DNA of 64,000 bases from Carcharhinus amblyrhynchos. Lineage: Eukaryota. Of this stretch, positions 863 through 63,126 are shown in pieces. The position numbers and the translations under genes are program-made. The stretch lies in the NCBI GenBank assembly GCA_965287045.1, contig OZ336877.1:66712001-66776000 (forward strand), written 5' to 3'. The stretch's first letter is position 1. Each line of letters starts with the position of its first letter. The notes under the pieces are model-generated. The model saw nothing but the letters and a program-made list of their open reading frames with translations. It did no database searches and was not told the origin of the DNA.

Positions 863-2735
863 ACCATGATTCTACTGTCACTGTTGGTTACCTTTGTTGA
901 AGCGGATAATCAGGAAGTGGTTATAGCTGCGAAATCTGAACTCATACCTGCAGAAGTATAATTATTAACCTGAGCTAACTCATTGATTATGTTATTGATG
1001 GAATAGAATCAATACACAGGGTATGTTCACGCTTCCGTGAAATCAAGCTGCGTCAATGATGGGAAACATAAACTAGTAACTGGGTTGCATGAACGGCCCT
1101 CCTTCATCTCAGTAGCCTGCAAGATTGAAATCAGGCTTATTCTCTAACTATACCCCATGAATAAGATTAAATACATAATACATGCTGAATATTTCATAAT
1201 GAGTTATAGAAAATGCTCAATCATTTATCTCTTAATAGAACTCTCATCAACTTCAAATAGCATAAACAAAATAACTATTTACATTTTGGACACATAGGAG
1301 GCGCATGGCTCTCATAGTGAGCATTCCTTCCAGATATACCGACTCTATAGAAAAACTGAACATTAAAGCACTCTACAGAAATTTAAAATATCGCAATAGC
1401 ACAGTATCATCATATTCTTCAATTGAAGGAAACTTTTGTTTAGAAATTTTTTTTTTTCTAGTTCTTACGCAGGGGAAGAGACATGAGAAGAAATGTTAAT
1501 TAACTCCTTAAAGCTTTAAAAAGAGTGAGAATAAAGGTTAGAATTGCATTTGAAAAGTTATGAATCTGAAAATAAAAATGACCTAATAGCAGGGGAGTAG
1601 AATAGAAGAACATTGAAGGAAACTAAATAACTGGATGAATACAGGTAAAGGGTTTAATTTTAATATTTTAAATGTTAAATTCTATTGTTAATGTTTATTA
1701 TGGCATTTAGAGTTAATTATTTTAGCAGTAAAATTATTTCAGTAGTTTTAGTTCTTTGACATTCCTGGTTATTTCTGCAGCATAGATTAACATTCATAAA
1801 ATTCCAGAATTGTCCCAAAATATCTGCACAAATGAAATCTAGATTATTATCACCAGAAGTACAAGTGTTTCAATCCAAAGCATATTTTTTGTGGGTGTAA
1901 AGATTACAGGGGATTGAGTATAGCTTTGATCATGTGAATTAGTATAGGTCTTGTATCTGAGACTCAAGGAGGCTGCATGCGTTGGGTAACTGACAATTTT
2001 CTTTGTGTAACAAGCCTGTGGTAATCTCAGTGATCAAATTGTAGGATTAAGCACAAGAGTTAATATTATCACAACTCTGACATGTGTTCCTGCTTTGGAA
2101 TGCATGTCTGAGCCTGTTATTTAATGCAATGTGGTTCATAGGAATGCAATAATTTCTTACAATTTTACATCCATTGTTTTGACTTTTGCTTCCCCTGTCA
2201 TTAGAGATTACTCAGTGAATGATGGGCATGACAGCATCTGGAAAAAAAGCACAAGTCAATGGCCAGCTGATATTTCCCTTTCTGAATATTCATTTGACAA
2301 CACTGGTGAACTTTGCTGCAATTGAAACATGGAACTTCACAAGCAGAAATATCAAAACAATGACTTCACACATAACATCATACCACATAACTTTGACTGC
2401 TTTTTGGACACTGGACATGCTCAGCCAAAATGGAATGGGACTCACTCACCCTTTCTCTTCCCTAATCTGACTAAATGCAATTTTAATTTGCAAATGGCAA
2501 GTACACCTGCCCCCAGCGAGCAGTGTCCATTTTAAATATGCGCTCTGATGACACAATTGAGGCCTGATCTGTTACTTTAATCTGAGGCCTGAGCAGGCGA
2601 GCAATGGTGCCTATCCAACCAGCAAAATCTGCTGGGAACAGCAACTGGAGCCAGAAGGGACCAAGTTTTCTTCACCCTAGTAAGGAAATTTTGACCGCCC
2701 CAATTCCTGGTAGGGGATTTTCCTCTTCCTGTATT

Positions 2736-4077
2736 GAATCATAGAGGTTTACAGCATTTGGTCCAACTTGTCCATGCCACCCTTTTTTTTAAAACCGAAG
2801 CTAGTCCCAATTGCCCAAATTTGGCCCATATCCCTCTATACCCATCTTATCCTGTAACTGTCTAAATGCTTTTTAAAAGACAAAATTGTACCCACCTCTA
2901 CTATTACCTCTGGCAGCTTGCTCCAGACACTCACCACTCACTATATGAAAAAATTGCCCCTTAGGCACTTTTGTATCTCTCCCCTCTCATTTTAAACCTA
3001 CGTGCTCTAGTTTTAGACTCTCCTACTTTGGGAAATGATATTGACTATCTTGCTGATCTATGCCCCTCATTATTTTATAGATCTCTACAAGATCACCCCT
3101 CAGTCTTCTACACTCCAGAGAAAAAAGTCCCAGTCTATCCAGTTTTTCCTTATAACTCAAACTATCAAATCCTCGTAGCATCCTAGTAGATCTTTTCTGC
3201 ACTCTTTCTAGTTTAATAATATCTTTTCTATAATAGGGTGACCAGAACTGTACACAGTATTCCAAGTGTAGCCTTACCAATGTCTTGTACGATTTCAACA
3301 AGACATCCCAACTCGTGTATTCAATGTTCTGACCAATGAAACCAAGCATGCTGAATGCCTTCTTCACCACTCAGTCCACCATTAATTTACTTTGTCTAAA
3401 TTAAACTCCATCGGCCATTCGTTAGTCCACCAGCCGAATTGATCAAGATCCCGTTGCAATCCGAGATAACCTTCTTCGCTGTCCACTGTGCCACCAATCT
3501 TGGTGTCATCTGCAAACTTGCTAACCATGCTCCTATATTCTCATCCAAATCATTGATATAAATGACAAATAACAGTGGACCCAGCACTAATCCCTAAGGC
3601 ACACCACTGATCAGGGCCTCCAGTTTGAAAAACAACTCTCTACAATCACCTTCTGGCTTCTGTCATCAAGCCAATTTTGTATCGATTTAGATACCTCACA
3701 CTGGATCCCGTAAAATTTAACCTTATGCAATAACCTATCATGTAGTATTTTGTCAAAGGCCTTGCTAAAGTCTATGTCGACAACATCACGTGCACTGCCC
3801 TCATCTGCCTTCTTGGTTACCCCTTCAAAAACTCAATCAAATTTGTGAGACATGATTTTCTACTCACAAAGCCATGCTGACTGTCCCTAATCAGTCCTTG
3901 CGTCTTTAAATACCTGTATATCCTGTCTCTCAAAATTACTTTCCAACAACTTACCCACCACAGATGTGAGGCTCACTGGCCTATATTTCCCAGGCTTTTC
4001 CCTTTTTAAACAAACGTACAACACTTGCCACCCTCCAATCTTCAGCTATCTCACCGGTGACTATCGATGATTTAAAT
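2736..4077 (-). mobile_element. CR1 LINE, 5'-truncated, frameshifted RT
   Basis: ORF pieces LGPLLFVIYINDLD (3396-3587) and YKTLVRLHLEYCVQFWSPYYRKD (3023-3370) are collinear with the intact CR1 at 42408-43775. Confidence 0.92.
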
Positions 4078-5310: not shown

Positions 5311-6387
5311 ACACACAGTGGTGAATTTGACGCACCGAGCGAGCACAAAAATGATTTTACTTGCTCCTACAAGGACTATCTGCCCCAAAAGTAGCAGAGG
5401 ATGCAGATCATGCATTGGACTGATCGGCCATCCCAGAATCCATCAAACTGGAAAAGGGATTTTCAAGTTATCAATCTTATTACTGAAAATTGGGAGAGCT
5501 GTGAATAAAACACACTGATCTCCATATCTGATTGTTCTGACTTTCTTTCCTGCATAAAACAGCACGTGATGAGTGTAAACATGAAATAGCTACCTCAAAA
5601 ATACTGTGCAGCAGCAATCCAACATTTATAAAGTGAACAAGAACAAAACTCAAGGTTGATACGCCCTGGAGTATGTATCTTATTAACAGGTACTTGAATA
5701 TGACTAATTTGCAGTGCAATGGTGTAAAAGTTGGGTGTGTGGAACAAATTGGACTGATCTTTCAAAGAGCAGGCACTGATACAGTGGACTGTAATGGACT
5801 TCGTCTGCGCTATAATATTCAAAAATTCTACAAAGGATAAAAGAAGTGGGGATCGACTGCACAAGATCCCATTAACAGCACAGTGTTCTTACTTGGATTA
5901 CTGTGCACAGATTAACCAACAGGTTTCGGCTGCTTTTTTGTTAATGTTTGCTGTCTTATATTAGTCGCAGTACGAGATGGAGTGTGATCAAGGCCAGAGC
6001 AGGTATCAGCAGAACGTCATAAGCAAACAATGCAGATAGCTGATTGTACATCATGGTGTAATTGGAAGCCAGTCACAAGGCAGCACAAAAACAACTTAGC
6101 GGCGTGCTTGGGTGATGTGCTTTCTGCCTCTGATATCAATCAGCTACTGCTTCAGCCCCCAGCTGATTAGCTGAAATGATCAATAAAATACTGTTGCAAT
6201 GGTCAGATCCTCGCTTTGAATTGCCCAGTTGTTTTTTATTCTGCCAGTTTTTCAACATTATTTTTAAATTGTATAAATCAACCGCAAAAATCATTGTTAG
6301 ATCAATACTTCACTTTAAATTCATTGGGAGACAACATTACTGTGAGATCATTAATCATATGCTAATCATTTTGCTAAGGTACTTAAT

Positions 6388-6769
6388 TTTATTCATTCAC
6401 CGGGCATGGGTGTAGCTGGCTGGCCGGCCAGCATTTATTGCCCATCCCTAGTCGCCCTTGAACTGAATGGCTTGCTAAGCCATTTTAGGGGGCAGTTGAG
6501 AGTCAACCACATTACTGTGGCTTTGGAATCACATATATGCCAAACCAGGTAAGATTTCCTTCCCTAAAAGACATTGGTGAACCAGATGGGTTTTTCTAAC
6601 AATTGACAACAGTTTACAGTCATCAAAAGATTCTTAATTCCAGATATTTTTTATTGAATTCCAATTCCACCATCTGCTGTGCCCGAATTTGAACCCAAGT
6701 CCTCAAAACATTTGCTGAGTGTTTGGATCAACAGTCTAGCGATAATACCAGTAGGCCATCACCTCCCCC
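6388..6769 (-). mobile_element. tRNA-headed SINE (5' head + 3' tail of the LINE family at 12660)
   Basis: Minus strand: A-box TGGCCTACTGG, B-box GGTTCAAATT, core AACCCATCTGGTTCAC..TTTAGGGAAGGAAATCT, and tail GGGCAATAAATGCTGGCC..GAATGAAT. Confidence 0.85.
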
Positions 6770-11347: not shown

Positions 11348-13118
11348 CCTTAATTCCACTAGGATGTGTTTTCCTTATTTATCTGAAGAAAGATTCACAG
11401 AGGTTGATTACAATCTCACCTGCACATTGGAAACCAGAAAAGTGGGCTGTCAAATACATATAGGTTACTGACCAGATTGAAAATCAACCCATTTACACTG
11501 GTCCCCATTTTAACAAATACAATTTTGCAGGTGAATGAGGCACTTGCCAAAGCTGTTGGGAATTTGGTACATTTGTGCAAACTGGAGTCTCACTGTATTA
11601 TTTTCACTGCAGCTTCAGCAGGGAAGCTGCTGCTCTGCAGACAGAGAGGCAATCCCAAATAAGTGTAAAACTTCCCTCTGTGGGACCAAGACAAGCAGGA
11701 ATGAAATGTAAAGTAAGTTGGGCTGTAAAATGAGCATTCGACCTGAACTCACCAGACAGGACTACGGATGTGTAATTGTGCAGTACTGAACAATTGGAAG
11801 CAACAGAGCTTGATAGCTTATTGATTATTTCTGATTAATGATAAAAATCTATTTTTTTTGTGGTAACAAATAACAAAAATATTATTGAAGTTTTAGTTTT
11901 ATTTTGAATTGAATTGATTTGATTCAATGTTCACATTGAGGAAGCAATGTTTGCACTGTAATTCAAGTTGAACATGGTACTAACTGAACATTAGACATCT
12001 GCACTTCCTTCATACTTTAAAATCAATAACTGAAGAACTATGGCAGGGCAGACTATCCATTTTTGGGAAATATAAGAACACATGAAACTAATAATTTTAG
12101 ATATAAACAGCTTATAATTATGCATTACTTCTCGACTTCTTTTCTCCAAAGGTTTATTAATGAGCTGATGATTGTGAGATTGGAATATTGTGTACCATAT
12201 TAGTCTTCTTATTTAAGGAAAGCTGTAGGGTCAATTTATCCTGAATTGGGTCTAAGTGCCCACACTGATTGGAAAACGAAGATGTTTTCCACTAGCAGCA
12301 TCTTTCAAGAGGGATTCACCCACCTGGAAGATATTAATAAGCTCATTTCAAGCAATGTGGTGGCCACTCCTGCTGCTCCAAGACGGGGCCTTCCTTTTTA
12401 AAGAGTATTCTGGTCTCCATGCTCAGAGATAGGCTGGTCTACCTCCAAAAAATGAAATAGTTCCCCTCTCCTCACTGACCAGGGGAAAACCCTTACGCAC
12501 AAATAATGCCCCCACTCCCCCTCCCCCATCACACTGCAATATAGGTGACCAGACTCCCCATTCAGGCCCCCTTCCTCCTCAGAACCCATACTTAGCCACC
12601 CTTCACCTCACGTATCTTAACAGTGCCAACGGTTCACTGCCCCAGCACTTGGCACTGACACCCTGGCTCAGTGGTAATATCAGCAGACTGGTGTCGAAAG
12701 ACCCAGGCTAATGTTCTGGGGACATGGGTTCAAACCTCACCATGTCAGCTAATGGAATTTAAATTTGATTAATAAATCTGGAATTACAAGCTAGTCTGAG
12801 TAAGGGTCACAATGAAACCCCATTCTGGTGATAACCCATCTGTTTCACTTCCCTTTAGGGAAGGAAATCTGCTCTCCTTATTTGGTCTGGCCTACATCTG
12901 ACTCCTGACCCACAGCAATGTGGTTGATTCTTAAATGCTCTTGGAAAAATCCTAACAAACCACTCAGTTGTATCAAACAGCCACAAAATGTAACAAGGAA
13001 TGAAAGTGGATAGATCACCTGGCATTGACCGAGGCACCAGAAACAACAGAACAAAGCTCGTCAATCCTGCAAACATCGGCCAAAATTAGGAGAGCTTCCC
13101 ACAGACTAGTCAATCAAC

Positions 13119-13807
13119 TATAGTATAAGGGTCCTGCACACATAGGGTAATGTGGAACTGAGTACAGTACCATCCACACAAATAATGTCCCAACTCCCCA
13201 CACTACATAGGCATGAGGGTGACCCAACTGCCTTCCCTCTTCCCCCTCAGTGATGTAAAAGAGCACAAGACTTTTTGGGGTGGCCCGGTAGCACAGTGGC
13301 TAGCACTGCTGCTTCACAGCTCCAGGGACCTGGGTTTGATTCCTGGCTTGGGTCACTGTCTGTGTGGAGATTGCACATTCTCCTCGCGCCGGTGTGGGTT
13401 TCCTCAACGTGCTCTGGTTTCCTCCCACAATCCAAAGATGAGTGGATTAGTTGATTGGCCATGCTGAAATTGCCTCTTAGAGTCCTGAGATGCAAAGGTT
13501 AGAGGGATTAGTGGGTAAATATGTAAAGATATGGGGGCAGGGCCTGGGTGGGATTGTAGTTGGTGCAGACTTGATGGGCCAAATGGCCTCTTTCTGCACT
13601 GTAGGGATTCTATGATTCTACTTCCAGGGTCAGTGTGTGGTGTTGGAGAAAGCTCCATATAGACCTAAGCATAAAGATTGTGCCTAGCTTGTACCCTTTA
13701 CGATATTGTAAATAGCTCCAGCAGTTAATAAAGACTTACTGTTAACTTCCAAAAGATTATAAAGACTTCATCAAACCTACTGAGATGTAACCAACACCTG
13801 ACAATCA
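13119..13807 (+). mobile_element. Solo LTR (Gypsy-like) inserted in the LINE
   Basis: 4-bp TSD CAAC (13115-13118 and 13808-13811), TA(TG)...CA ends, AATAAA near 13727. The LINE sequence resumes exactly after it. Confidence 0.75.
13277..13620 (+). mobile_element. HE1-like tRNA SINE with CR1 tail, nested in the solo LTR
   Basis: A-box TAGCACAGTGG, B-box GGTTTGATTCC, tail GATGGGCCAAATGGCCT..ATTCTATGATTCTA. Confidence 0.9.
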
Positions 13808-15312
13808 CAACAGCCTGGCATACTCATATTCACTGAATCCGGAACGTCTCGAGATACCATTGTCCCTGGGTTTTTCCTGTCCCTGCAGGACAGACCCTCA
13901 CTCCTCACCCCCTTCTCCCTATTTAGAGACAGTGCGGCATAATCATCAGGACAGAATTGTTATGGGAGTCCTCAACATTGATGCTGGACCCTATGAAATT
14001 TCATGGCATCACATCAAACACGGGCAAGTAAGCCTTCTGCTGATTCCCACCTACCCCATCAGCATCCATCCCCAGTCAGCTGATGAATCAGTACTCTTCC
14101 ATGTTAATAATCAATTGGAAGAAGCACCAAAAGTGGTAAGGGTACTGAAGGTACTCTGGGTGGGGATCTTCAATGTCTGTCATCAAGAATGGTGAGCCAT
14201 AGTGCTGCTATTAAAGGACATAAATGCTACACTGGGTCTGTGGCAGGTGGTGAAGGAACCAACAAGAGGGAAAAAGCTACTTGACCACCTGTTCACTAAT
14301 TTTTCTCTCACAAATGCATCTGTCCATGACAGTATTAGTAGGAGTGACCACAGTCTTTGTGGAGGTAAAGTCCCATTTTCATATTGACTTATAAGTTCCA
14401 CCATGTTGTGTGGCACTACCACCATACTAAATGGAATAAATTTCGAACAGACAGTATAACTGCATAAGGCAGTGTAGGCCATCAGCAGCAGCAGAATTGT
14501 ACTCAACTACAATCGGTAACCTCAACATATCCCCCCGTAAGCCAAGAGATCAAGTCCGCTCTGATGAAGAGTGCAGGAGGGCATGACAGTAGGGATACCA
14601 AAACAAAAATGAGGTGGCAACTTGCTCAAGCTACAATGCAGGACTACGTGCAAACCAAACTCAGGAATTCAGCAAACATTTGGCAGAGCTAAGCTATCCC
14701 ACAACCATTGGATGAGTTCTAAGTCCTGCCATATCCAGTTGTGGATGGAGTTGAACAACTAAATAACTGGCAGATGGAGAAAGCTCCATAAATACCTCTA
14801 TGCTCAATGGTGGGGGAGGCCAGCACATTAGTGTTACAGTGAGGACTTCAAACCGTCTTCATCCAGAAGTGCCATTTCAGCCTCCTCTGGAGATGCCAGT
14901 TCCAGCCAATTTGATTCATTCTACAATTGATGGCTGAAAGAACTAGACACTGCAAAAGCCATGAGCCCTGACAATGTTCCAGCAATAATATTGAAGTTAA
15001 AAGTGCTCCAAAACTTGCTGTGCCTTAACTAAAGAGGGAGCCCCAAGCTGTTCCAGGACAGCTACCATACAGGCATCTAAATGGCAATGTCAGAAATTGT
15101 CCTGGTATGGCCTGTCCACAAAATAGATGACAAATCCACCCTCAACAATTACTGTTCCATCAGTCCACTCTTGAACATCAACAAAGTGATGAAAAGTATC
15201 ATCGATTGTGCCATCAGTGAGACACTCACGCAGCAATAACCTGCTCGCTAACACTTAGTTTGGGTTCTGCCAGGGTCACTCAGCTCTTGACCTCATTACA
15301 GCCTTGGTTACG

Positions 15313-15440
15313 TAAGAACATAAGAAATAGGAGCAGGAGTAAGCCATCTACCCCTTTGAGCCTGCCCCGCCATTCAATAAGATCATGGCTGATCTGATCA
15401 TGTTTCAGTTCCACTTACCTGCCTGTTCCCCATAACCATG
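15313..15440 (-). mobile_element. Short CR1 tail
   Basis: taagaacataagaaataggagcaggagta is a CR1 3' terminus in reverse. Confidence 0.75.
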
Positions 15441-16228
15441 CCTTATGGTTCAAACATGAACAAAAAAGTTAAATTCCACAGATGAGCTTAGGGTGACTGC
15501 CCTTGACACCCAGGCAGCATTTGACCGAGCGTGGCAGCAAGAAATCCTAGCAAAACTGGATTCAATGGGAATTGGAGAAAACCCTCCCCAAAAATGCCAG
15601 TCTAGCTGATGAAGCCTGGAAAAAAATCACAAACAACTGTTTCCCAGTTACCTGTTCACATTTAACAACACATGATCAATGCAAAGATATGAAGTTAACT
15701 GAATGATGCCTCTGATGATGGTCTTATCAGTGTCAATTCACATGAATGTACAACATTGGTTAATTTTCTCTATTGCAGCTCAGGGTGTAAGTTAGAATGG
15801 CATTCAGATTAGACAATTCGAATATCCTTAATGGGTGCTTTCTCATAGGTCTATAGTAATTTTGTGACGGATGAAGATCTTTCATTATAGAATAACCAGG
15901 ACTGATTGAGGACAAAGAAAGGTTGATGGTGATAGTGCCTGGAGAGAAAAGATAATAATGTAATGAAAAATAACTCTGAGCAATGAAAACAACAAAAGCC
16001 TTCAGTCATGCAATTGTCTATGTTGGGAGAAGGTGACATACTGGTGTAACCTCCTAGAATTTTCTATTAGAATCAGACTGGATTTCAAATTGACATGGCC
16101 TTGAAACCTTTGGTCTGAATTTTTGGTCCTGAGTCAGAAGTGTAGAGTCAGGAAAATACCCGTCTCCGCAAACCCAAGTCTGGAAAAAATGTCTGAAATT
16201 TTCAGATTATCTGTGTGGGGATGGGAAT

Positions 16229-16471
16229 GATGTGGAGATGTCAGCGTTGGACTGGGGTAAACACAGTAAGAAGTCTCACAACACCAGGTTAAAGTCCAAC
16301 AGGTTTATTTGGTAGTAAATGCCACTCGCTTTCAGGGTTTGCCCCTTTGTCAGGTGAGTGGGAGTTCTGATCACAAACTCACCTGACGAAGGGGCAAACC
16401 TCGAAAGCTAGTGCCATTTACTACCAAATAATCCTGTTGGACTTTAACCTGGTGTTGTGAGAGTTTTTACT
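16229..16471 (-). mobile_element. Penelope-derived fold-back element
   Basis: Penelope terminus GATGTGGAGATG.., inverted arms of about 100 bp around a 17-nt spacer, TSD GGGATGGGAAT / GGGATAGGAAT. Confidence 0.9.
16378..16413 (+). ncRNA. Minimal type I hammerhead ribozyme motif
   Basis: CAC-CTGACGA-A-GGGG(caaa)CCTC-GAAA-GC-TA-GTG: conserved core, stem II, stem I CAC/GTG, palindromic AGCT in place of stem III. Confidence 0.75.
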
Positions 16472-17159: not shown

Positions 17160-17975
17160 TTTTTATTATACATTCTTGGGATGTTGGTGTCACTGGCTAG
17201 GCCAACATTTATTATCCATATCTAATTGCTCTTGAGAAGGTGATGATGAGCTGCCTTCTTGAACTGCAGCAGTCCATGTGGTGTAGTAGGCACACCCATA
17301 GTGTTGTTAGGAAGGAAGGAAGGAATGACAAATTATTTCAAAGTCAAAATGGAGGGTGATTTGGTGGGGAATCTCCAGCTGGTGGTGTTCACATGTATCA
17401 GCTACTCTTATCCTTCTAGATAACAGTTGTCATGGGTTTAGAAGGTGCTGGGTAAGGAAACTTTGTGAGTTCCTGCAGTACATCTTGTAAGTGGTACACA
17501 CTGTTGCCACTGTGAGTGAATGGTGAAGGGAGTAACTGTTTGTGGATGGAGTAGCAATCAAGTGGCTGCTTTGGTCTGGATGATGTTGAACGTGTCAAGT
17601 GTTGTTGGAACTACACTCATCCAAGCAAGTGGAAAATACTCTCCAACACACCCTTAACTTTGCCTTGTAGATGTTGGACAGGCTCTGGGGAGTCAGGAGA
17701 TAAGTTACTTGTCACAGGATTTCTAGCCTTTGACCTGCTCTGGTAGCCATAGTATTTATGTGGCTAGTTTATTTCAGTTTCTGGCCAATGGTAATCCGCA
17801 AGATGTTGATAGTGAGGGATTTAGTGATGGCAATGTCATTGAATGCCAAGGGGCTTTGTTGGAAATGGTCATTTTTTGGTACTTATGAGGTGCAAATGTT
17901 ACTTGTCACTTGTTAGCCCAGTCATGGATATAGTTCAGGTCTTGCTGCATTTGGAAATGGACTGTTTCTGTCTAT
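17160..17975 (-). mobile_element. 3' part of an old LINE, probably the same family as 12660
   Basis: Tail CCTTCTCAAGAGCAATTAG..AATAAATGTTGGCCTAGCCAG..CATCCCAAGAATG is shared with the SINE at 6388; collinear with 47470-48200. Confidence 0.75.
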
Positions 17976-18074
17976 GTAAGCAGACATTATTTTATTAGAC
18001 CTTTCTGAGTTGGAGCCCTTGCCTGTTTTTGAAAACTTTTCACATTTCTCATGCCAGTAAGTCTCAAAGAGACA

Positions 18075-18660: not shown

Positions 18661-18940
18661 GTTGGAGATAGAGAACTGACCGTGCTGAAGGCAGTGGTAG
18701 TGGTGAAGGTGATCTTGTTACTTCATGGAGCTAAGAGGATGTTGTAAAAAAAGGGGAGAGCAAATATTGAGTTACATGATAAAGACATAACAATTATGAT
18801 TAAATGTAATGGTGTGTATCGGAGCATGTTCTAACAATGTAAAAGGATGAACTCCTTTTGTGAATCATGCACGTCGCACCACTGCTCGCCAGCCACCCCC
18901 CATCCCCTGGATCATCTCATCCCTCTGGCATCAAGGTAAG

Positions 18941-20447
18941 GATGTGGATGTGCCGGCGTTGGACTGGGGTAAACACAGTAAAAAGTCTGACAACACCAGG
19001 TTTTAGTCCAACCGATTTATTTGATAGTAAACTCACAAGCTTTCGAGGGGACTGCCTCTTCATCAGGTGAATGGAGAGTTCTGGCCTCGGACAGAGCATA
19101 TAAAGCACAGACAGTTTACAGATTACTGATTAGAATGCGAATCTTTACACCTAACCTGCTGTTCAAGCCTTAAAGTGGCCGACAATGTGTGTGGAAGGAG
19201 CACTGATCACAGGTTAAAGAGATGTGTATTGTCTCCAGACAGCACACAGTGAGTGAGGTTTTGCAAACCCAGGCAAGTCACAGATGGTGCGACATGAACC
19301 CAAGATCCCTGTTGAGACCATCCTCATGTGTGTGGAACTTGGCTATCAGTCTCTGCTCAGCGACTCTGCGCTGTCATGTGTCATGAAGGCCGCCTTGGAG
19401 AATGCTTACCCGAAGGTCAGAGGCTGAATGCCCGTGACCACTGAAGTGTTCACCAACAGGAAGGGAACAGTCTTGCCTGGTGATTATCGAGCAATGTTCA
19501 TTCATCCGTTGTCGTAGCGTCTGCATGGTCTCCCCAATGTACCATGCTTCGGGACATCCTTTCTTGCAACGTATCAGGTAGACAATGTTGGCCGAGTTGC
19601 AAGAGTATTTACCGTGTACCTGGTGGATGGTATTCTCACATGTGATGATGGTATCCATGTCGATGATCCGGCATGTCTTGCAGAGGTTGCTGTGGCAGGG
19701 TTGTGTGGTATTGTGGTCACTGTTCTCCTGAAGGCTGGGTAGTTTGCTGCAAACAATGGTCTGTTTGAGGTTGTGCGGTTGTCTGAAGGCAAGAAGTGGG
19801 GGTGTGGGGATAGCCCTGGCGAGATGTTCGTCTTCATCAATGATATGTTGAAGACTCCGGAGAAGATGCCGTAGCTTCTCCGCTCCAGGGAAGTACTGGA
19901 CAACGAAGGGTACTCTGTCCACTGTGTCCTGTGTTTGTCTTCTGAGGAGATCGGTGCGGTTTTTCGCTGTGGCGCATCAGAGCTGTCGATCTATGAGTCG
20001 AGCGCCATATCCTGTTCTTATGAGGGCATCTTTCAGCGTCTGGAGGTGTCTGTCACGATCCTCCTCAACTGAGCAAATCCTGTGTATACGGAGGGCTTGT
20101 CCATAGCGAATGGCTTCTTTAACATGTTTAGGGTGGAAGCTGGAGAAGTGGAGCATTGTGAGATTGTCTGTGGGCTTGCAGTACAGTGAGGTGCTGAGGT
20201 GACCGTCCTTAATGGAGATGCATGTGTCCAAGAATGCAACCGATTCTGGGGAATAGTCCATGGTGAGTCTGATGGTGGGGTGGAATTTGTTGATATTGTC
20301 ATATAGTTGTTTCAGTGATTGTTCACCATGAGGCCAAAGGAAGAAAATGTCATCGATGTATCTAGTGTATAGCATCGGTTGAAGATTCTGTGCAGTGAAG
20401 AAGTCTTGTTCGAACCTGTGCATGAAGATGTTGGCATATTGAGGTGC
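18941..20447 (-). mobile_element. Penelope-like element, 5'-truncated (partial RT + GIY-YIG endonuclease)
   Basis: RT APQYANIFM..YTRYIDDIFF (19977-20447). GIY-YIG domain with CCHH spacing, NIVYLIRCKKGCPEAWYIGET..RMNEH (19374-19922). TSD CAAGGTAAGG / CAAGGTGAGG. Confidence 0.95.
19033..19070 (-). ncRNA. Minimal hammerhead ribozyme in the Penelope 3' pLTR
   Basis: TCAC-CTGATGA-A-GAGG(cagtcc)CCTC-GAAA-GC-TT-GTGA, on the element's sense strand. Confidence 0.75.
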
Positions 20448-21039
20448 AAGGTGAGGAACAGATGTCCAAGGAGGCAGTGCCCATCTTATTAGCCCATACT
20501 CCATCAATACAGATATCAGCACATGGGAGGGATAATATGGAAGGTGATTAAAGTTGCTCGTATAACACAGTTGTGGCCTGGCCATGCACAATGTGTGTTC
20601 ACTGCAATAGTGTTAGCACATATGATTTGTAGGTCGTGGGAGTAAAGTCCTGCCTCCTACTGGCAGTCTTGGCATAATGAGTGTGATTTGAGTTGACACA
20701 GCGTGGCATCTTGGCCATTTCTTTGGCAATTACTAACAGATATGTGCCAGGACCAGGTTGTGAAGTATTTCCCAAGATCTATCTGTGCACTGCATTGACC
20801 CCAATGGTTATGATGGTCACAGTTTTATCCATGATTATGACACTGACCTTCAGTAAGTACAATTGTATTTCTTCCTTGTTGGGGATGGGCATTTCCCTGA
20901 GGGTATATGGTTTCCACGTGAAAAGTTTATTATGTGAAAGTTGCTCACCAAGGACTGGCTGATGTAAATTGTGAGCTTCCAGGGTCCTAGATCAACTTGT
21001 TCTGGATTAACAGATTTCCGGCAATGACATCTTGGAGAA

Positions 21040-34790: not shown

Positions 34791-35599
34791 AGAACATGGA
34801 TCTGTCATCAGCCAGCAGCCCTTGGAGCTATCCGGCATATCTTTGCCTTTTTAGCAAATGAGTTGAAGATGGGGTCGTGATCTGGGTCTCAGAGAAACTG
34901 GAACTGTGATCGTATATACATGACTTGTGATCCAATGGGTTGCTGATCCATGAGTGGTCTTCTTCTCTTTGTACACCCATTGGACCACTGGAGGGCCAGC
35001 TACTTGACAATTTGACCAACAAGGGAATCATTCTACAACCGTGTATGATGAATGATATCTATGGCCTTAAGTTAAGGTACATAACAATTTTACTATCTTC
35101 TGATCCTGGGTAAAACTCTGTACACAGAAACATTAAGAGCTTTTTTTTTTAATTCATTCATTCTATAGAGTTGGGCATCACTGACAAGTTTATTGGCTAT
35201 CTCTAGTTGCCCTTAAGAAGGTGGTGGTGAACTGCCTTCTTGAACTGCTGCAGTTGATGTGGTGAAGCTAATCTCATACTGTTGTTGGCAACTCCCTTTG
35301 TCCTTCTAGGTGATGGAAGATATAAGATTGTCAAAGAAGCCTTGTTGAATTACTGCAGTGCATCCTGTAGGTATTATGCACAGTAGCCATGGTGTGCACT
35401 GTGAAGGGAGTGAATGAGTGGATACGCTTTCAACTGAACAGACTTCTAATGCAGAAGTAAACCACGACAGAAGCTGGAGATCTGATATACAAAACAGAAA
35501 ATGATGGAGATTCTCAGGAGGTCTAGAAGCATCTGTGGGATGCATCAGTGGAAACAGAGTTAACATTTCAGATCCATGACTTTTCAGCAGTACTTGAAA

Positions 35600-47065: not shown

Positions 47066-47469
47066 GTATTATGGCCATTAGTATTATGGGGATAAGTTCC
47101 TTAAACTTTATACCATGAAATATGCTAAACTTCCACTGGAGCCATCAGTAGTATAAGTTCAGTTATGTTCACAGATACTTTGAGCAAGTGATGGATGCAT
47201 TTTTCTTTGGAGCTGGTAATTTCATTCAATTCTCCAGTTTGCCAATAAACTTCAAGTTTCAGGGGTCATTGTATTCACATAAACATATATATGAAACTTT
47301 ATGAACAGCAAAAGATATCACTGACTCAATATGCAACTTATTTATGACCAATAGAATATTATTCAAGCGAATGCTCACTTCATTGGGAGCTACTTTCAAT
47401 ATAGTGGACCCTGAAAGACAATTCCCTCTGTGAGTCATTGGTGACTTAGATTATCCTCGACAGACTTTT

Positions 47470-48205
47470 GTTTTTATTCATTAAAGGATGTGAGCATCGC
47501 TGGCAAGGTCAGAATATATTGTCCTTTAATTGCCCTTGAGGAGCTGATTGTGACTACTTTCTTGAATTGCTGCAGTCCATGTGGTATAGATAAACTCACT
47601 GTGCTATTAGGCAGAGTGTTCCAGGATGTTGGCCAAGTGTCAATAAATGAATGGTGAAATATTTCAGGATGGTATTTGACAAGGATGGCAACTTGCAGGT
47701 GTTGGTGTTCCCATGTATCCGCTACCTGTTCTTTTCAGCTTTAACAGTCTTAAGCTTGTCAAAGAAACATTGGTGAGTTGCTGCAGTTCCTCCTTTAGAT
47801 AGTACACACACAACTATTGAGTGCTACTGGTGGAGGAAATTAACATTTTGCTGGATGGGGTGCCATAGTAGGCTGCTTTGTTCTGGATGATGTCAACTAC
47901 CTGAATGTTGTTGGAGCTGGGGAATATCCCATCATGCTCCTGATTCATACCTTGTAGGTGGTGGGAAGGTTTTAGGGAATCAGGAGGTCTTACTGCAGAA
48001 TGCCTAGCCTCTGAGCTGCTCTTGTAGCCACAGTATTTATGTGGCTGGTCCAGTTAAGTTTTAAGTTAATGGTAACTGCCAGGATAGTGTGGGAATTTGA
48101 CAATGATAATGCTGTTGATGGTTAAGAGAGGTTGTTAGATCCTTCCTGACTGGAGACTGTCATTAACAAGAACTTATCAGTTCAAGTATGGATATTGTTC
48201 CACTC
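47470..48205 (-). mobile_element. 3' part of an old LINE (family of 17160-17975)
   Basis: Collinear with 17160-17975 and has the same tail; further tails at 35145-35430 (-) and 61845-62085 (+). Confidence 0.75.
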
Positions 48206-61830: not shown

Positions 61831-63126
61831 GGACAAAGATATTACTTGCAAGGGAATAGTTCAAATGCAAGTTCCCCTCCAAGTCATGTACATACTGCCA
61901 TTCCTTAATCACCACTGGGGCAAAATCCTGTAAGATCCTACATAACAGCACCATGGGATGAACTAAACCACATGCACTAGCTTAAAAGACTGCCCACCAC
62001 CACCTTCTTAAGAATAATAGGGTATGGACAACAAACATTGGCTTTTCCAGAGATGTCCACATCACATGAACAAATTAAAAAATACAGCAAAATGGAAGTA
62101 CATCCTCATGCGCCTGACTTCCTAATCAAAGCATTGCACAGAAGGAAATTAGAGTTGTGCTCAATCTATTTTACAAGAGTGGTTACTGATGACATGGTAT
62201 TATGGACCATCATTGCCAGTCAAATTTGATCATTAATTTGTGCAATTGTGAGGATAATATCAGATTTGGGGCAAATCCAAGTCCTTTAGTTCTGGTATAT
62301 ATACCACCACATCACAAATTAATTGGCTTAAAAATGATCATAACAAAGTTCTGTCCCAGTATTTCTCAGAAAATTGTAGTGGGCGGGATGGAAAATTTGG
62401 CAGATCGCTTAAAGGTCTGTTGAATTCAGGTGGGAATTTCCGATCTCTGGCAGACACAACCGGAAAATCCCATTCATAATGTTTCTAACATAATGGAACA
62501 CCTAAGGTTCTTCACAGGAGTATTATAAAGTATGACACCAAGCCAGGTCAGATGACCAAAGGTTTAGTCAAACTGGTAGCTTTTAAGGAGTTTCTTGGAA
62601 GTGGAAAGTGAGATAGAGAGGCAGAAAGCTGTGAGGTAGAAGTTGACCATTAAATTACCTGTTTATGTTTATTATGTTGCATGCCATTTAAGCAAACAAC
62701 TTCTCCTAATAAAGACCAGCTGAACAGGACTAAAGAAATTGTTGTTGGGTGTTTCTAATGCTACTAAAAGCCTTACTCAGCTTATCACTGTTAATTTGCT
62801 GCTGAAAATAGATTGCATGTGACGAGGTCTCCTGAAACACATCAGGAGACTTCACTTACACTCTATCAACTTTCATTTCAGAAATTCTCTGAAGACTTTA
62901 CCTAAAAATGTATGCTCTGTGCTTTCTAAAGGTCTAAAAGGAGTCACCAGGACAAAAGAAGTATACAGTCAAAGCAACTTTGCCAAGGATTTCCCTTGGT
63001 CTGAGGTGTAAGTAGGAGGAGGAGATGTAACCAGGCAATGCAGCTTAAATTGCAGAATAGAGGAGTAGGAAGAGTAGAAAGATGGGGTAGGCTCCAAACC
63101 CCAGGCACCACATCCTTCACTCCCAC

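What the first reader, a model, noticed from the sequence alone, without database searches (positions are those of the whole stretch)
12660..15590. LINE that starts with a tRNA-type Pol III SINE head, with no visible ORF1
Seen: A/B boxes and a SINE body of about 310 bp (12660-12970) run through about 110 bp of linker into the start of an APE domain (PKLGELPHRLVNQQP once the solo LTR is removed), followed by GDFN/SDH-like motifs and an RT start. From memory, the core AACCCATCTG..TTTAGGGAAGGAAATCTGC..GGTCTGGCCTACAT.TGACTCC resembles the Meta/MESC SINE domain (unverified). Established: LINEs normally use Pol II 5'UTR promoters, and CR1/L2 elements usually have ORF1. Inference: either an autonomous or semi-autonomous retroposon driven by a captured SINE head, or the LINE from which this SINE body derives.
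Basis: partly seen in the sequence, partly recalled or inferred. Interest (0 to 1): 0.7.

Follow-up and report, generated by a model that had tools for sequence, protein, structure and literature searches.

The report
Shark Zenon LINE with tRNA head
This is a dead copy of an abundant shark and ray jumping gene that encodes its own copying enzyme, yet starts with the tRNA-like promoter of short non-coding repeats and avoids the T-runs that stop RNA polymerase III, so that polymerase, thought to make only non-coding RNA, likely transcribes it (untested).

Summary
Observation confirmed; not chance adjacency. Window 12660-15586 is a decayed, 3'-cut copy of a 3.29-kb family: tRNA-like A/B-box head, body, linker, one 935-aa APE-RT frame, poly(A), no ORF1. 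Searching with ORF DNA alone, 23 of 30 copies carry the whole head, 7 are 5'-truncated, none has another 5' end. The head-linker junction occurs exactly 615 times, the SINE form (head+body+same tail) 3047 times. The family is elasmobranch Zenon (Stuart 2026, PMC13343379): all 7 shark/ray consensuses begin with this head, but the main text never mentions tRNA or Pol III. The sense strand lacks T-runs: T3 observed/expected 0.16, against at least 0.57 in 77 control LINE ORFs; its single T4 is CpG decay. SINE and LINE heads share age-diagnostic sites (14 by age, 0 by type), so the SINE is likely a recurrent deletion derivative. No in-frame AUG precedes the endonuclease. Not supported: the Meta/MESC assignment and TSDs. 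Best reading: a Pol III-transcribed autonomous LINE (0.55); transcription and translation are untested. This scan has noted the family before, on other DNA.

The parts
12660..12752 (+). tRNA-derived head with A box (12664-12674) and B box (12727-12736); the first ~10 nt of the family 5' end are eroded in this copy
   Evidence: best of 13 isotype/anticodon classes tested is tRNA-Ser(AGA) for the family majorities, not decisive
12753..12969 (+). Body shared by the LINE and the free SINE (family positions to 317)
12970..13067 (+). LINE-only linker: A-rich stretch, conserved out-of-frame AUG at 13000-13002, then an Arg-rich stretch open in the APE frame in the family
13068..13118 (+). Start of the APE endonuclease frame (family: KVLLTNIWGLVPKLGELSHRLV), with small deletions in this copy
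13119..13807 (+). Later insertion: solo LTR-like repeat with 4-bp duplication CAAC (13115-13118 / 13808-13811)
   Evidence: 40 scored relatives; several are followed by a PBS-like TGGTGGCAGC
13279..13620 (+). SINE nested inside the LTR (HE1/V-SINE-like; name recalled, not tested)
13812..15309 (+). Rest of APE domain, linker domain and start of RT, frameshifted and stopped
15310..15437 (+). Later ~128-bp multi-copy insertion, family not identified
   Evidence: 68-89% hits in 7 of 29 other loci
15438..15586 (+). RT continued (LRVTALDTQAAFDRAWQ), ending at family position 2222
17160..17976 (-). Family positions 2440-3294 with tail and A-rich end on the opposite strand: the inverted 3' part of this copy or a separate 5'-truncated copy
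6387..6768 (-). Free SINE: family positions 1-317 joined to 3220-3290

Best explanation
The window holds a dead copy of the shark and ray Zenon LINE, a 3.29-kb single-frame endonuclease/reverse-transcriptase element that starts with a tRNA-derived A/B-box head, and whose full-length RNA was likely made by RNA polymerase III from that head. SHOWN: the head-body-linker-ORF-tail unit in many copies; a sharp common 5' end at the tRNA-like first base; no ORF1; loss of sense-strand T-runs over 3.3 kb; no in-frame AUG before the endonuclease; a SINE made of the two ends. INFERRED: an ancestral Zenon gained the head before sharks and rays split, probably by template switching onto a tRNA or SINE RNA. 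TFIIIC would bind the boxes, Pol III would read the T4-free 3.3 kb and stop at the first T-run in the flank, and selection would purge terminators even inside the coding frame. The uncapped RNA would be translated by a non-canonical start: a non-AUG start just after the A-rich linker, or a -1 shift from the conserved out-of-frame AUG about 25 codons upstream. The protein would bind the 3' tail for target-primed reverse transcription. Internal deletions would repeatedly yield the SINE, which keeps promoter and tail.
For: Unit: 29 of 30 head+ORF-start hits run into the ORF from one 5' end with unrelated flanks; the 30th was mis-oriented by my script and is LINE-type. 17 of 20 extended copies reach the same tail and poly(A). 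ORF-only query: 23 of 30 full head, 5 cut within head/body, 2 cut in the linker, no alternative shared 5' sequence. T-runs: whole element T3+ 5 against 22.7 expected (0 of 200 simulations as low), while A, C and G runs are not depleted. The one T4 sits at a decayed CpG: 9 of 20 copies were readable there, 3 TTTCG, 2 TTTCA, 4 with T4. ORF T3 observed/expected is 0.16, against median 1.01 and minimum 0.57 in 77 control LINE ORFs (77 of 80 loci had at least 1 kb aligned); none of the 77 is T4-free, median 6.8 per kb. The two controls inside the same RT clade have 0.92 and 1.17. The older subfamily majority also has 0 T4 in 1574 nt. Old versus young majority ORF: 39 synonymous to 39 non-synonymous non-CpG codon changes in 387 codons, above the roughly 1:2-3 of neutrality (noisy, 10 loci). 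All 7 elasmobranch Zenon consensuses start with the head, B box included; the hagfish (2) and coelacanth (1) ones do not in the 400 nt visible (by eye). The lepidopteran Zenon-derived Persaeus lacks a Pol III promoter (PMC6740152). Heads split by age at 14 sites, by SINE/LINE type at 0, crossed at 2.
Against: There is no transcript evidence: no start site, polymerase, cap or terminus was observed. SINE-type Pol III RNAs are 100-700 nt, and Kojima argues that Pol III processivity forces autonomous partners to use Pol II (PMC10886601, passages). An uncapped RNA with 10 upstream AUGs and no in-frame AUG until codon ~137 has no known route to translation. The body is not more folded than shuffles (z -0.78; linker -0.02), so an IRES has no support. 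The element is C-rich and prefers C-ending codons at Tyr and His as well as Phe; shuffling with its own codon usage leaves T4 unremarkable (1 vs 2.2, p 0.31). The T-run figure comes from a majority sequence, the controls are single sequences; single copies give 0.2-0.67. The age groups were drawn from the same tree, which is partly circular, and the old LINE group has only 4 copies. No intact copy was seen.
Confidence: 0.55

Rival explanations
1. Split labour: Pol III makes the full-length RNA that is copied, but the protein comes from capped Pol II read-through transcripts of intact copies and acts in trans on the shared tail.
For: It explains head retention and T-run loss without translating an uncapped RNA. 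Trans action on the tail is needed anyway for the 3047-junction SINE.
Against: The missing in-frame AUG and the upstream AUGs remain a problem for capped RNA too. Purifying selection on the ORF of head-bearing lineages is easier to explain if each master supplies its own protein.
Confidence: 0.22
2. The LINE is an ordinary Pol II transcript. The captured head is a passive 5' UTR or acts as a Pol II promoter or ribozyme, and the low T content reflects codon or composition bias or escape from host silencing.
For: Established rule that LINEs use Pol II (PMC10886601). C-ending codon preference extends beyond Phe, and the own-usage codon shuffle is not significant. AATAAA occurs in the tail.
Against: TTT is depleted beyond dinucleotide expectation (6 vs 16; A 72 vs 75, C 56 vs 73, G 50 vs 62) and below all 77 controls. 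The boxes are kept across sharks and a ray while the sequence between them changed. The 5' end coincides with the tRNA-like first base.
Confidence: 0.2
3. The head-ORF junction is a chance adjacency, or a non-autonomous chimera amplified once.
For: None found.
Against: 615 exact junctions; at least two age classes; the same architecture in 7 published consensuses; no alternative 5' end in 30 ORF-anchored copies.
Confidence: 0.02

Closest known systems
Elasmobranch Zenon LINEs (CarCar, ScyCan, RhiTyp, HypSab Zenon-1; SquAca Zenon-1/2/3), Stuart et al. 2026, PMC13343379
   Same: Same 5' 400 nt by eye, similar length (3244-3314 nt for the five Zenon-1 consensuses, against 3294), single APE-RT frame, no ORF1, poly(A).
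   Different: Same family. The paper's main text has 0 occurrences of 'tRNA' and 'polymerase III', so the head, the T-run loss, the missing AUG and the derived SINE are not remarked there.
Lepidopteran Zenon and its deletion derivative Persaeus (PMC6740152)
   Same: About 3.3-kb Zenon with a short 5'+3' derivative of 300-390 nt.
   Different: Persaeus has no tRNA homology and no Pol III promoter, so it is a SIDE; the shark derivative carries A/B boxes and looks like a SINE.
RTE-1_DAn and relatives (Kojima 2018, PMC5786205)
   Same: A LINE reported to contain a tRNA-like sequence (one sentence in Methods).
   Different: RTE clade; position and function of the tRNA-like part are not described in the parts I read (2-3 of 5).
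Crocodilian Tx1 families with U1/U2-derived 5' ends shared with SINEU (PMC4494074; cited in PMC4758252)
   Same: Coding LINEs with a small-RNA-derived 5' end shared with a short element.
   Different: U1/U2 are Pol II genes with no internal promoter; different clade.
Bipartite SINEs such as Bov-tA and SINE2-1_ACar
   Same: tRNA head plus the 5' and 3' ends of a LINE.
   Different: There the head was added to a non-coding deletion product; here the coding LINE itself carries it.

Membership tests
Zenon (CR1 group) | Single ORF with APE and RT domains | tested here: met
   935-aa frame; Pfam Exo_endo_phos and RVT_1 above cut-off in natural copies
Zenon (CR1 group) | No ORF1 | tested here: met
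   Only about 425 nt precede the APE frame, with stops in all frames
Zenon (CR1 group) | Poly(A) 3' end | tested here: met
   15 full-length ends shown are A-rich
Zenon (CR1 group) | RT groups with named Zenon references | tested here: inconclusive
   My RT tree puts it in a clade (support 0.99) apart from this genome's three CR1-like RTs, but held no named Zenon. Membership rests on the 5' match to the published consensuses, by eye
Canonical CR1 / L2 with esterase ORF1 | Esterase ORF1 and no poly(A) tail | tested here: not met
tRNA-derived SINE (SINE2) | tRNA-like head with A and B boxes | tested here: met
   ARAGORN and Rfam do not score it as a tRNA
tRNA-derived SINE (SINE2) | Short and non-coding | tested here: not met
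   The 3.29-kb form codes APE-RT; only the ~390-nt derivative meets it
tRNA-derived SINE (SINE2) | Transcribed by Pol III | not testable with these tools
   Indirect only: T-run loss
MetaSINE / MESC | 66-bp Meta domain after the head | tested here: not met
   By eye, no likeness to the full BivaMeta-SINE1 and BivaMD-SINE1 sequences (PMC4824008 supplement part 1 of 4). The core 14-mer is absent from the hagfish SINE supplements. Domain bounds are in a figure I could not see; no alignment was computed
TSD-generating non-LTR insertion | Target-site duplication around full-length copies | tested here: not met
   0 of 15 convincing; best matches short or A-rich; copies are about 9% diverged

The most novel reading that the evidence does not exclude
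A protein-coding, self-mobilising retrotransposon transcribed by RNA polymerase III and translated from an uncapped 3.3-kb RNA without an AUG start, kept across sharks and rays, and throwing off SINEs directly by deletion: an 'autonomous SINE' that bridges the LINE/SINE divide.
Probability: 0.45. Interest if true: 0.85.

Novelty: new variant of a known kind. Interest (0 to 1): 0.62.

Why it matters
The working rule is that LINEs are Pol II mRNAs and SINEs are Pol III non-coding parasites. A coding LINE with a tRNA promoter and a terminator-free 3.3-kb body would break that rule. It would give a natural case of a translated Pol III RNA, and a direct route by which a SINE arises as a simple deletion of its own LINE. 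It is testable with a standard retrotransposition reporter plus box and terminator mutants. The family sequence itself is already published.

Tried and rejected
Meta/MESC domain and UCON3 domain: no match. TSD search: none convincing. IRES-like structure: body z -0.78, linker -0.02, head -2.2, ORF controls -0.4 to -2.0; one natural 5' region z -2.0. Rfam: 0 matches in 3 loci. ARAGORN: 0 genes in the window. Source tRNA unresolved: Ser(AGA) z 5.7 and Gln/Thr 4-5 for the family majorities, Thr best for the window copy; only 13 classes tested. RNA: no RNA holder listed; contigs of four guessed-RNA runs cover both forms but cannot show strand, start or expression. Homologue search with the APE piece found nothing; a second gave 6 proteins, the named ones from sharks. 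The first metagenome scan was empty. PDB gave nothing significant. Alignment A1 was misaligned; A1 and A2 were not used. My first LTR boundary (13770) was wrong and was corrected. No structure or complex prediction was run. Literature searches that listed no paper describing a tRNA-headed Zenon or a Pol III LINE. Repbase, Dfam and subscription journals could not be searched.

Full report
OBSERVATION. The window is G000:C8:66712001-66776000 in a 2.9-Gb genome; named protein relatives are from sharks. The A box (12664-12674), B box (12727-12736), body to 12969, linker and decayed APE-RT frame are all present. Two later insertions interrupt the copy. One is a solo LTR-like repeat, 13119-13807, with a CAAC duplication and a nested SINE at 13279-13620. 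The other is a 128-bp repeat at 15310-15437. Without them the copy matches family positions 11-2222 at 79%, with 57 indels. It is dead and 3'-cut; positions 2440-3294 lie on the opposite strand at 17976-17160.

IT IS A FAMILY. A head+ORF-start query gave 40 of 40 scored hits nearly end to end, the 39 non-self ones at 83-87%. Of the 30 fetched, 29 run from one sharp 5' end into the ORF with unrelated flanks; the 30th was mis-oriented by my script and is LINE-type. Of 20 copies extended to 7 kb, 17 reach a common tail and A-rich end, giving a 3294-nt element with one 935-aa frame (Pfam APE and RT). Several of these 30 overlap earlier loci. Exact junction counts are 615 for the LINE (control 4) and 3047 for the SINE (control 0); both are lower bounds on copy number. 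No TSD was convincing in 15 full-length copies. Copies diverge about 9% (young) and 17% (old, 4 copies) from their majorities, and no intact frame was seen.

THE SINE. The short form is positions 1-317 plus 3220-3294; other joins (1-290, 1-304, and 1-361 plus 3178) also occur. Across 54 LINE heads and 37 SINE heads (7 unclassified heads dropped), 14 sites split young from old regardless of type, 0 split SINE from LINE and 2 cross. So the SINE was re-derived from, or exchanged heads with, the contemporary LINE. The grouping came from the same tree, so this is partly circular. Zenon is known to spawn such deletion products in Lepidoptera (Persaeus; PMC6740152, passages). Whether a SINE donated the head in the first place is open.

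IDENTITY. All 7 elasmobranch Zenon consensuses begin with this head and body. The two hagfish and one coelacanth consensuses do not in the 400 nt visible (the coelacanth 5' end is low-confidence lower case). The comparison was by eye. The paper defines Zenon by no ORF1 and a poly(A) tail, and its main text has no 'tRNA' or 'polymerase III'. My RT tree (109 sequences, none a named Zenon) separates the family from this genome's CR1-like elements. The head is therefore likely a gain in the shark-ray ancestor (inference). The Meta/MESC guess fails against the BivaMeta and BivaMD sequences (PMC4824008, passages and supplement part 1 of 4). The source tRNA is unresolved, Ser(AGA) being best of 13 classes.

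POL III SIGNATURE. Runs of four or more T on the sense strand terminate Pol III (established knowledge). The majority element has 5 runs of T3+ where 22.7 are expected, with no such deficit for A, C or G; its single T4 is a decayed CpG. TTT is low even given the TT frequency (6 vs 16). In 77 control LINE ORFs from metagenome contigs, T3 observed/expected is 0.57 or higher (median 1.01) against 0.16 here, and none is T4-free; the two same-clade controls are normal, and the one with upstream DNA shows no A/B boxes in 700 nt. Six other LINE pieces in this genome carry 3.6 T4 per kb. The older subfamily is also T4-free over 1574 nt, and old versus young ORFs differ by 39 synonymous and 39 non-synonymous codons. 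Against: shuffling with the element's own codon usage is not significant (p 0.31); C-ending codons are favoured beyond Phe; single decayed copies give 0.2-0.67; and nothing here observes a transcript.

TRANSLATION. The first in-frame AUG lies about 137 codons into the endonuclease; 10 AUGs lie upstream of an out-of-frame AUG at position 349, seen in 19 of 30 copies, which opens a 36-codon frame overlapping the APE start. The APE frame is open upstream through an Arg-rich stretch, like the N-terminus of an unnamed relative (P0047). The A-rich stretch before it varies in length by non-multiples of three among the published consensuses (by eye), so initiation should lie at or after it. A non-AUG start or a -1 shift are the candidates; neither is tested, and folding gives no sign of an IRES.

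PRECEDENT. [quoted passage not shown] Tx1 LINEs with U1/U2-derived 5' ends are known (passages). Kojima 2024 states that LINEs use Pol II and SINEs Pol III (passages). PMC5499810 (parts 1-2 of 6), PMC7245038 (passages, section 8, supplement search) and PMC1513397 (passages) describe other shark or hagfish repeats. Nine searches listed no paper on a tRNA-headed Zenon; Repbase and Dfam entries could hold such a note unseen. This scan has recorded the same family many times; those notes gave a lead, not support.

VERDICT. A real, multi-copy, published LINE family with an unremarked SINE-type head and a strong indirect Pol III signature. New variant of a known kind; interest 0.62; Pol III-made coding RNA 0.55.

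Noticed in passing
window 17160-17976 (-): The missing 3' part of the family (2440-3294) lies 1.6 kb away on the opposite strand, nearly continuing from 2222: a possible inversion with a ~220-nt deletion, or a separate copy.
   Followed up: partly
window 19374-20612 (-): Two frames of 200 and 211 aa that look like a Penelope-type RT and GIY-YIG endonuclease (label recalled, not scanned); T3 and A3 runs are both low.
   Followed up: no
window 16265-16471: A 95-nt inverted repeat at 92% with a 17-nt spacer; a related copy lies at 18935-19031.
   Followed up: no
window 35189-35376, 47468-48085, 61897-62082: Further 5'-truncated pieces of the same Zenon family.
   Followed up: no
L093, L099, L107 (contig C26, within 80 kb): Three related deletion derivatives joining position ~361 to ~3178, a second short form distinct from the main SINE.
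   Followed up: partly
L077:2619-5035: A young CR1-like element with long open APE and RT frames inserted into a Zenon copy.
   Followed up: no
P0001, P0003, P0004, P0005: Shark gene models (aldo-keto reductase, sushi-domain, GPR139, storkhead-box) include Zenon ORF pieces as exons: annotation artefacts or exonisation.
   Followed up: no
PMC13343379 supplement, SquAca_Zenon-1 head: Two near-identical anticodon-arm-like hairpins in tandem between the A and B boxes suggest the long A-B spacing arose by duplication (by eye).
   Followed up: partly
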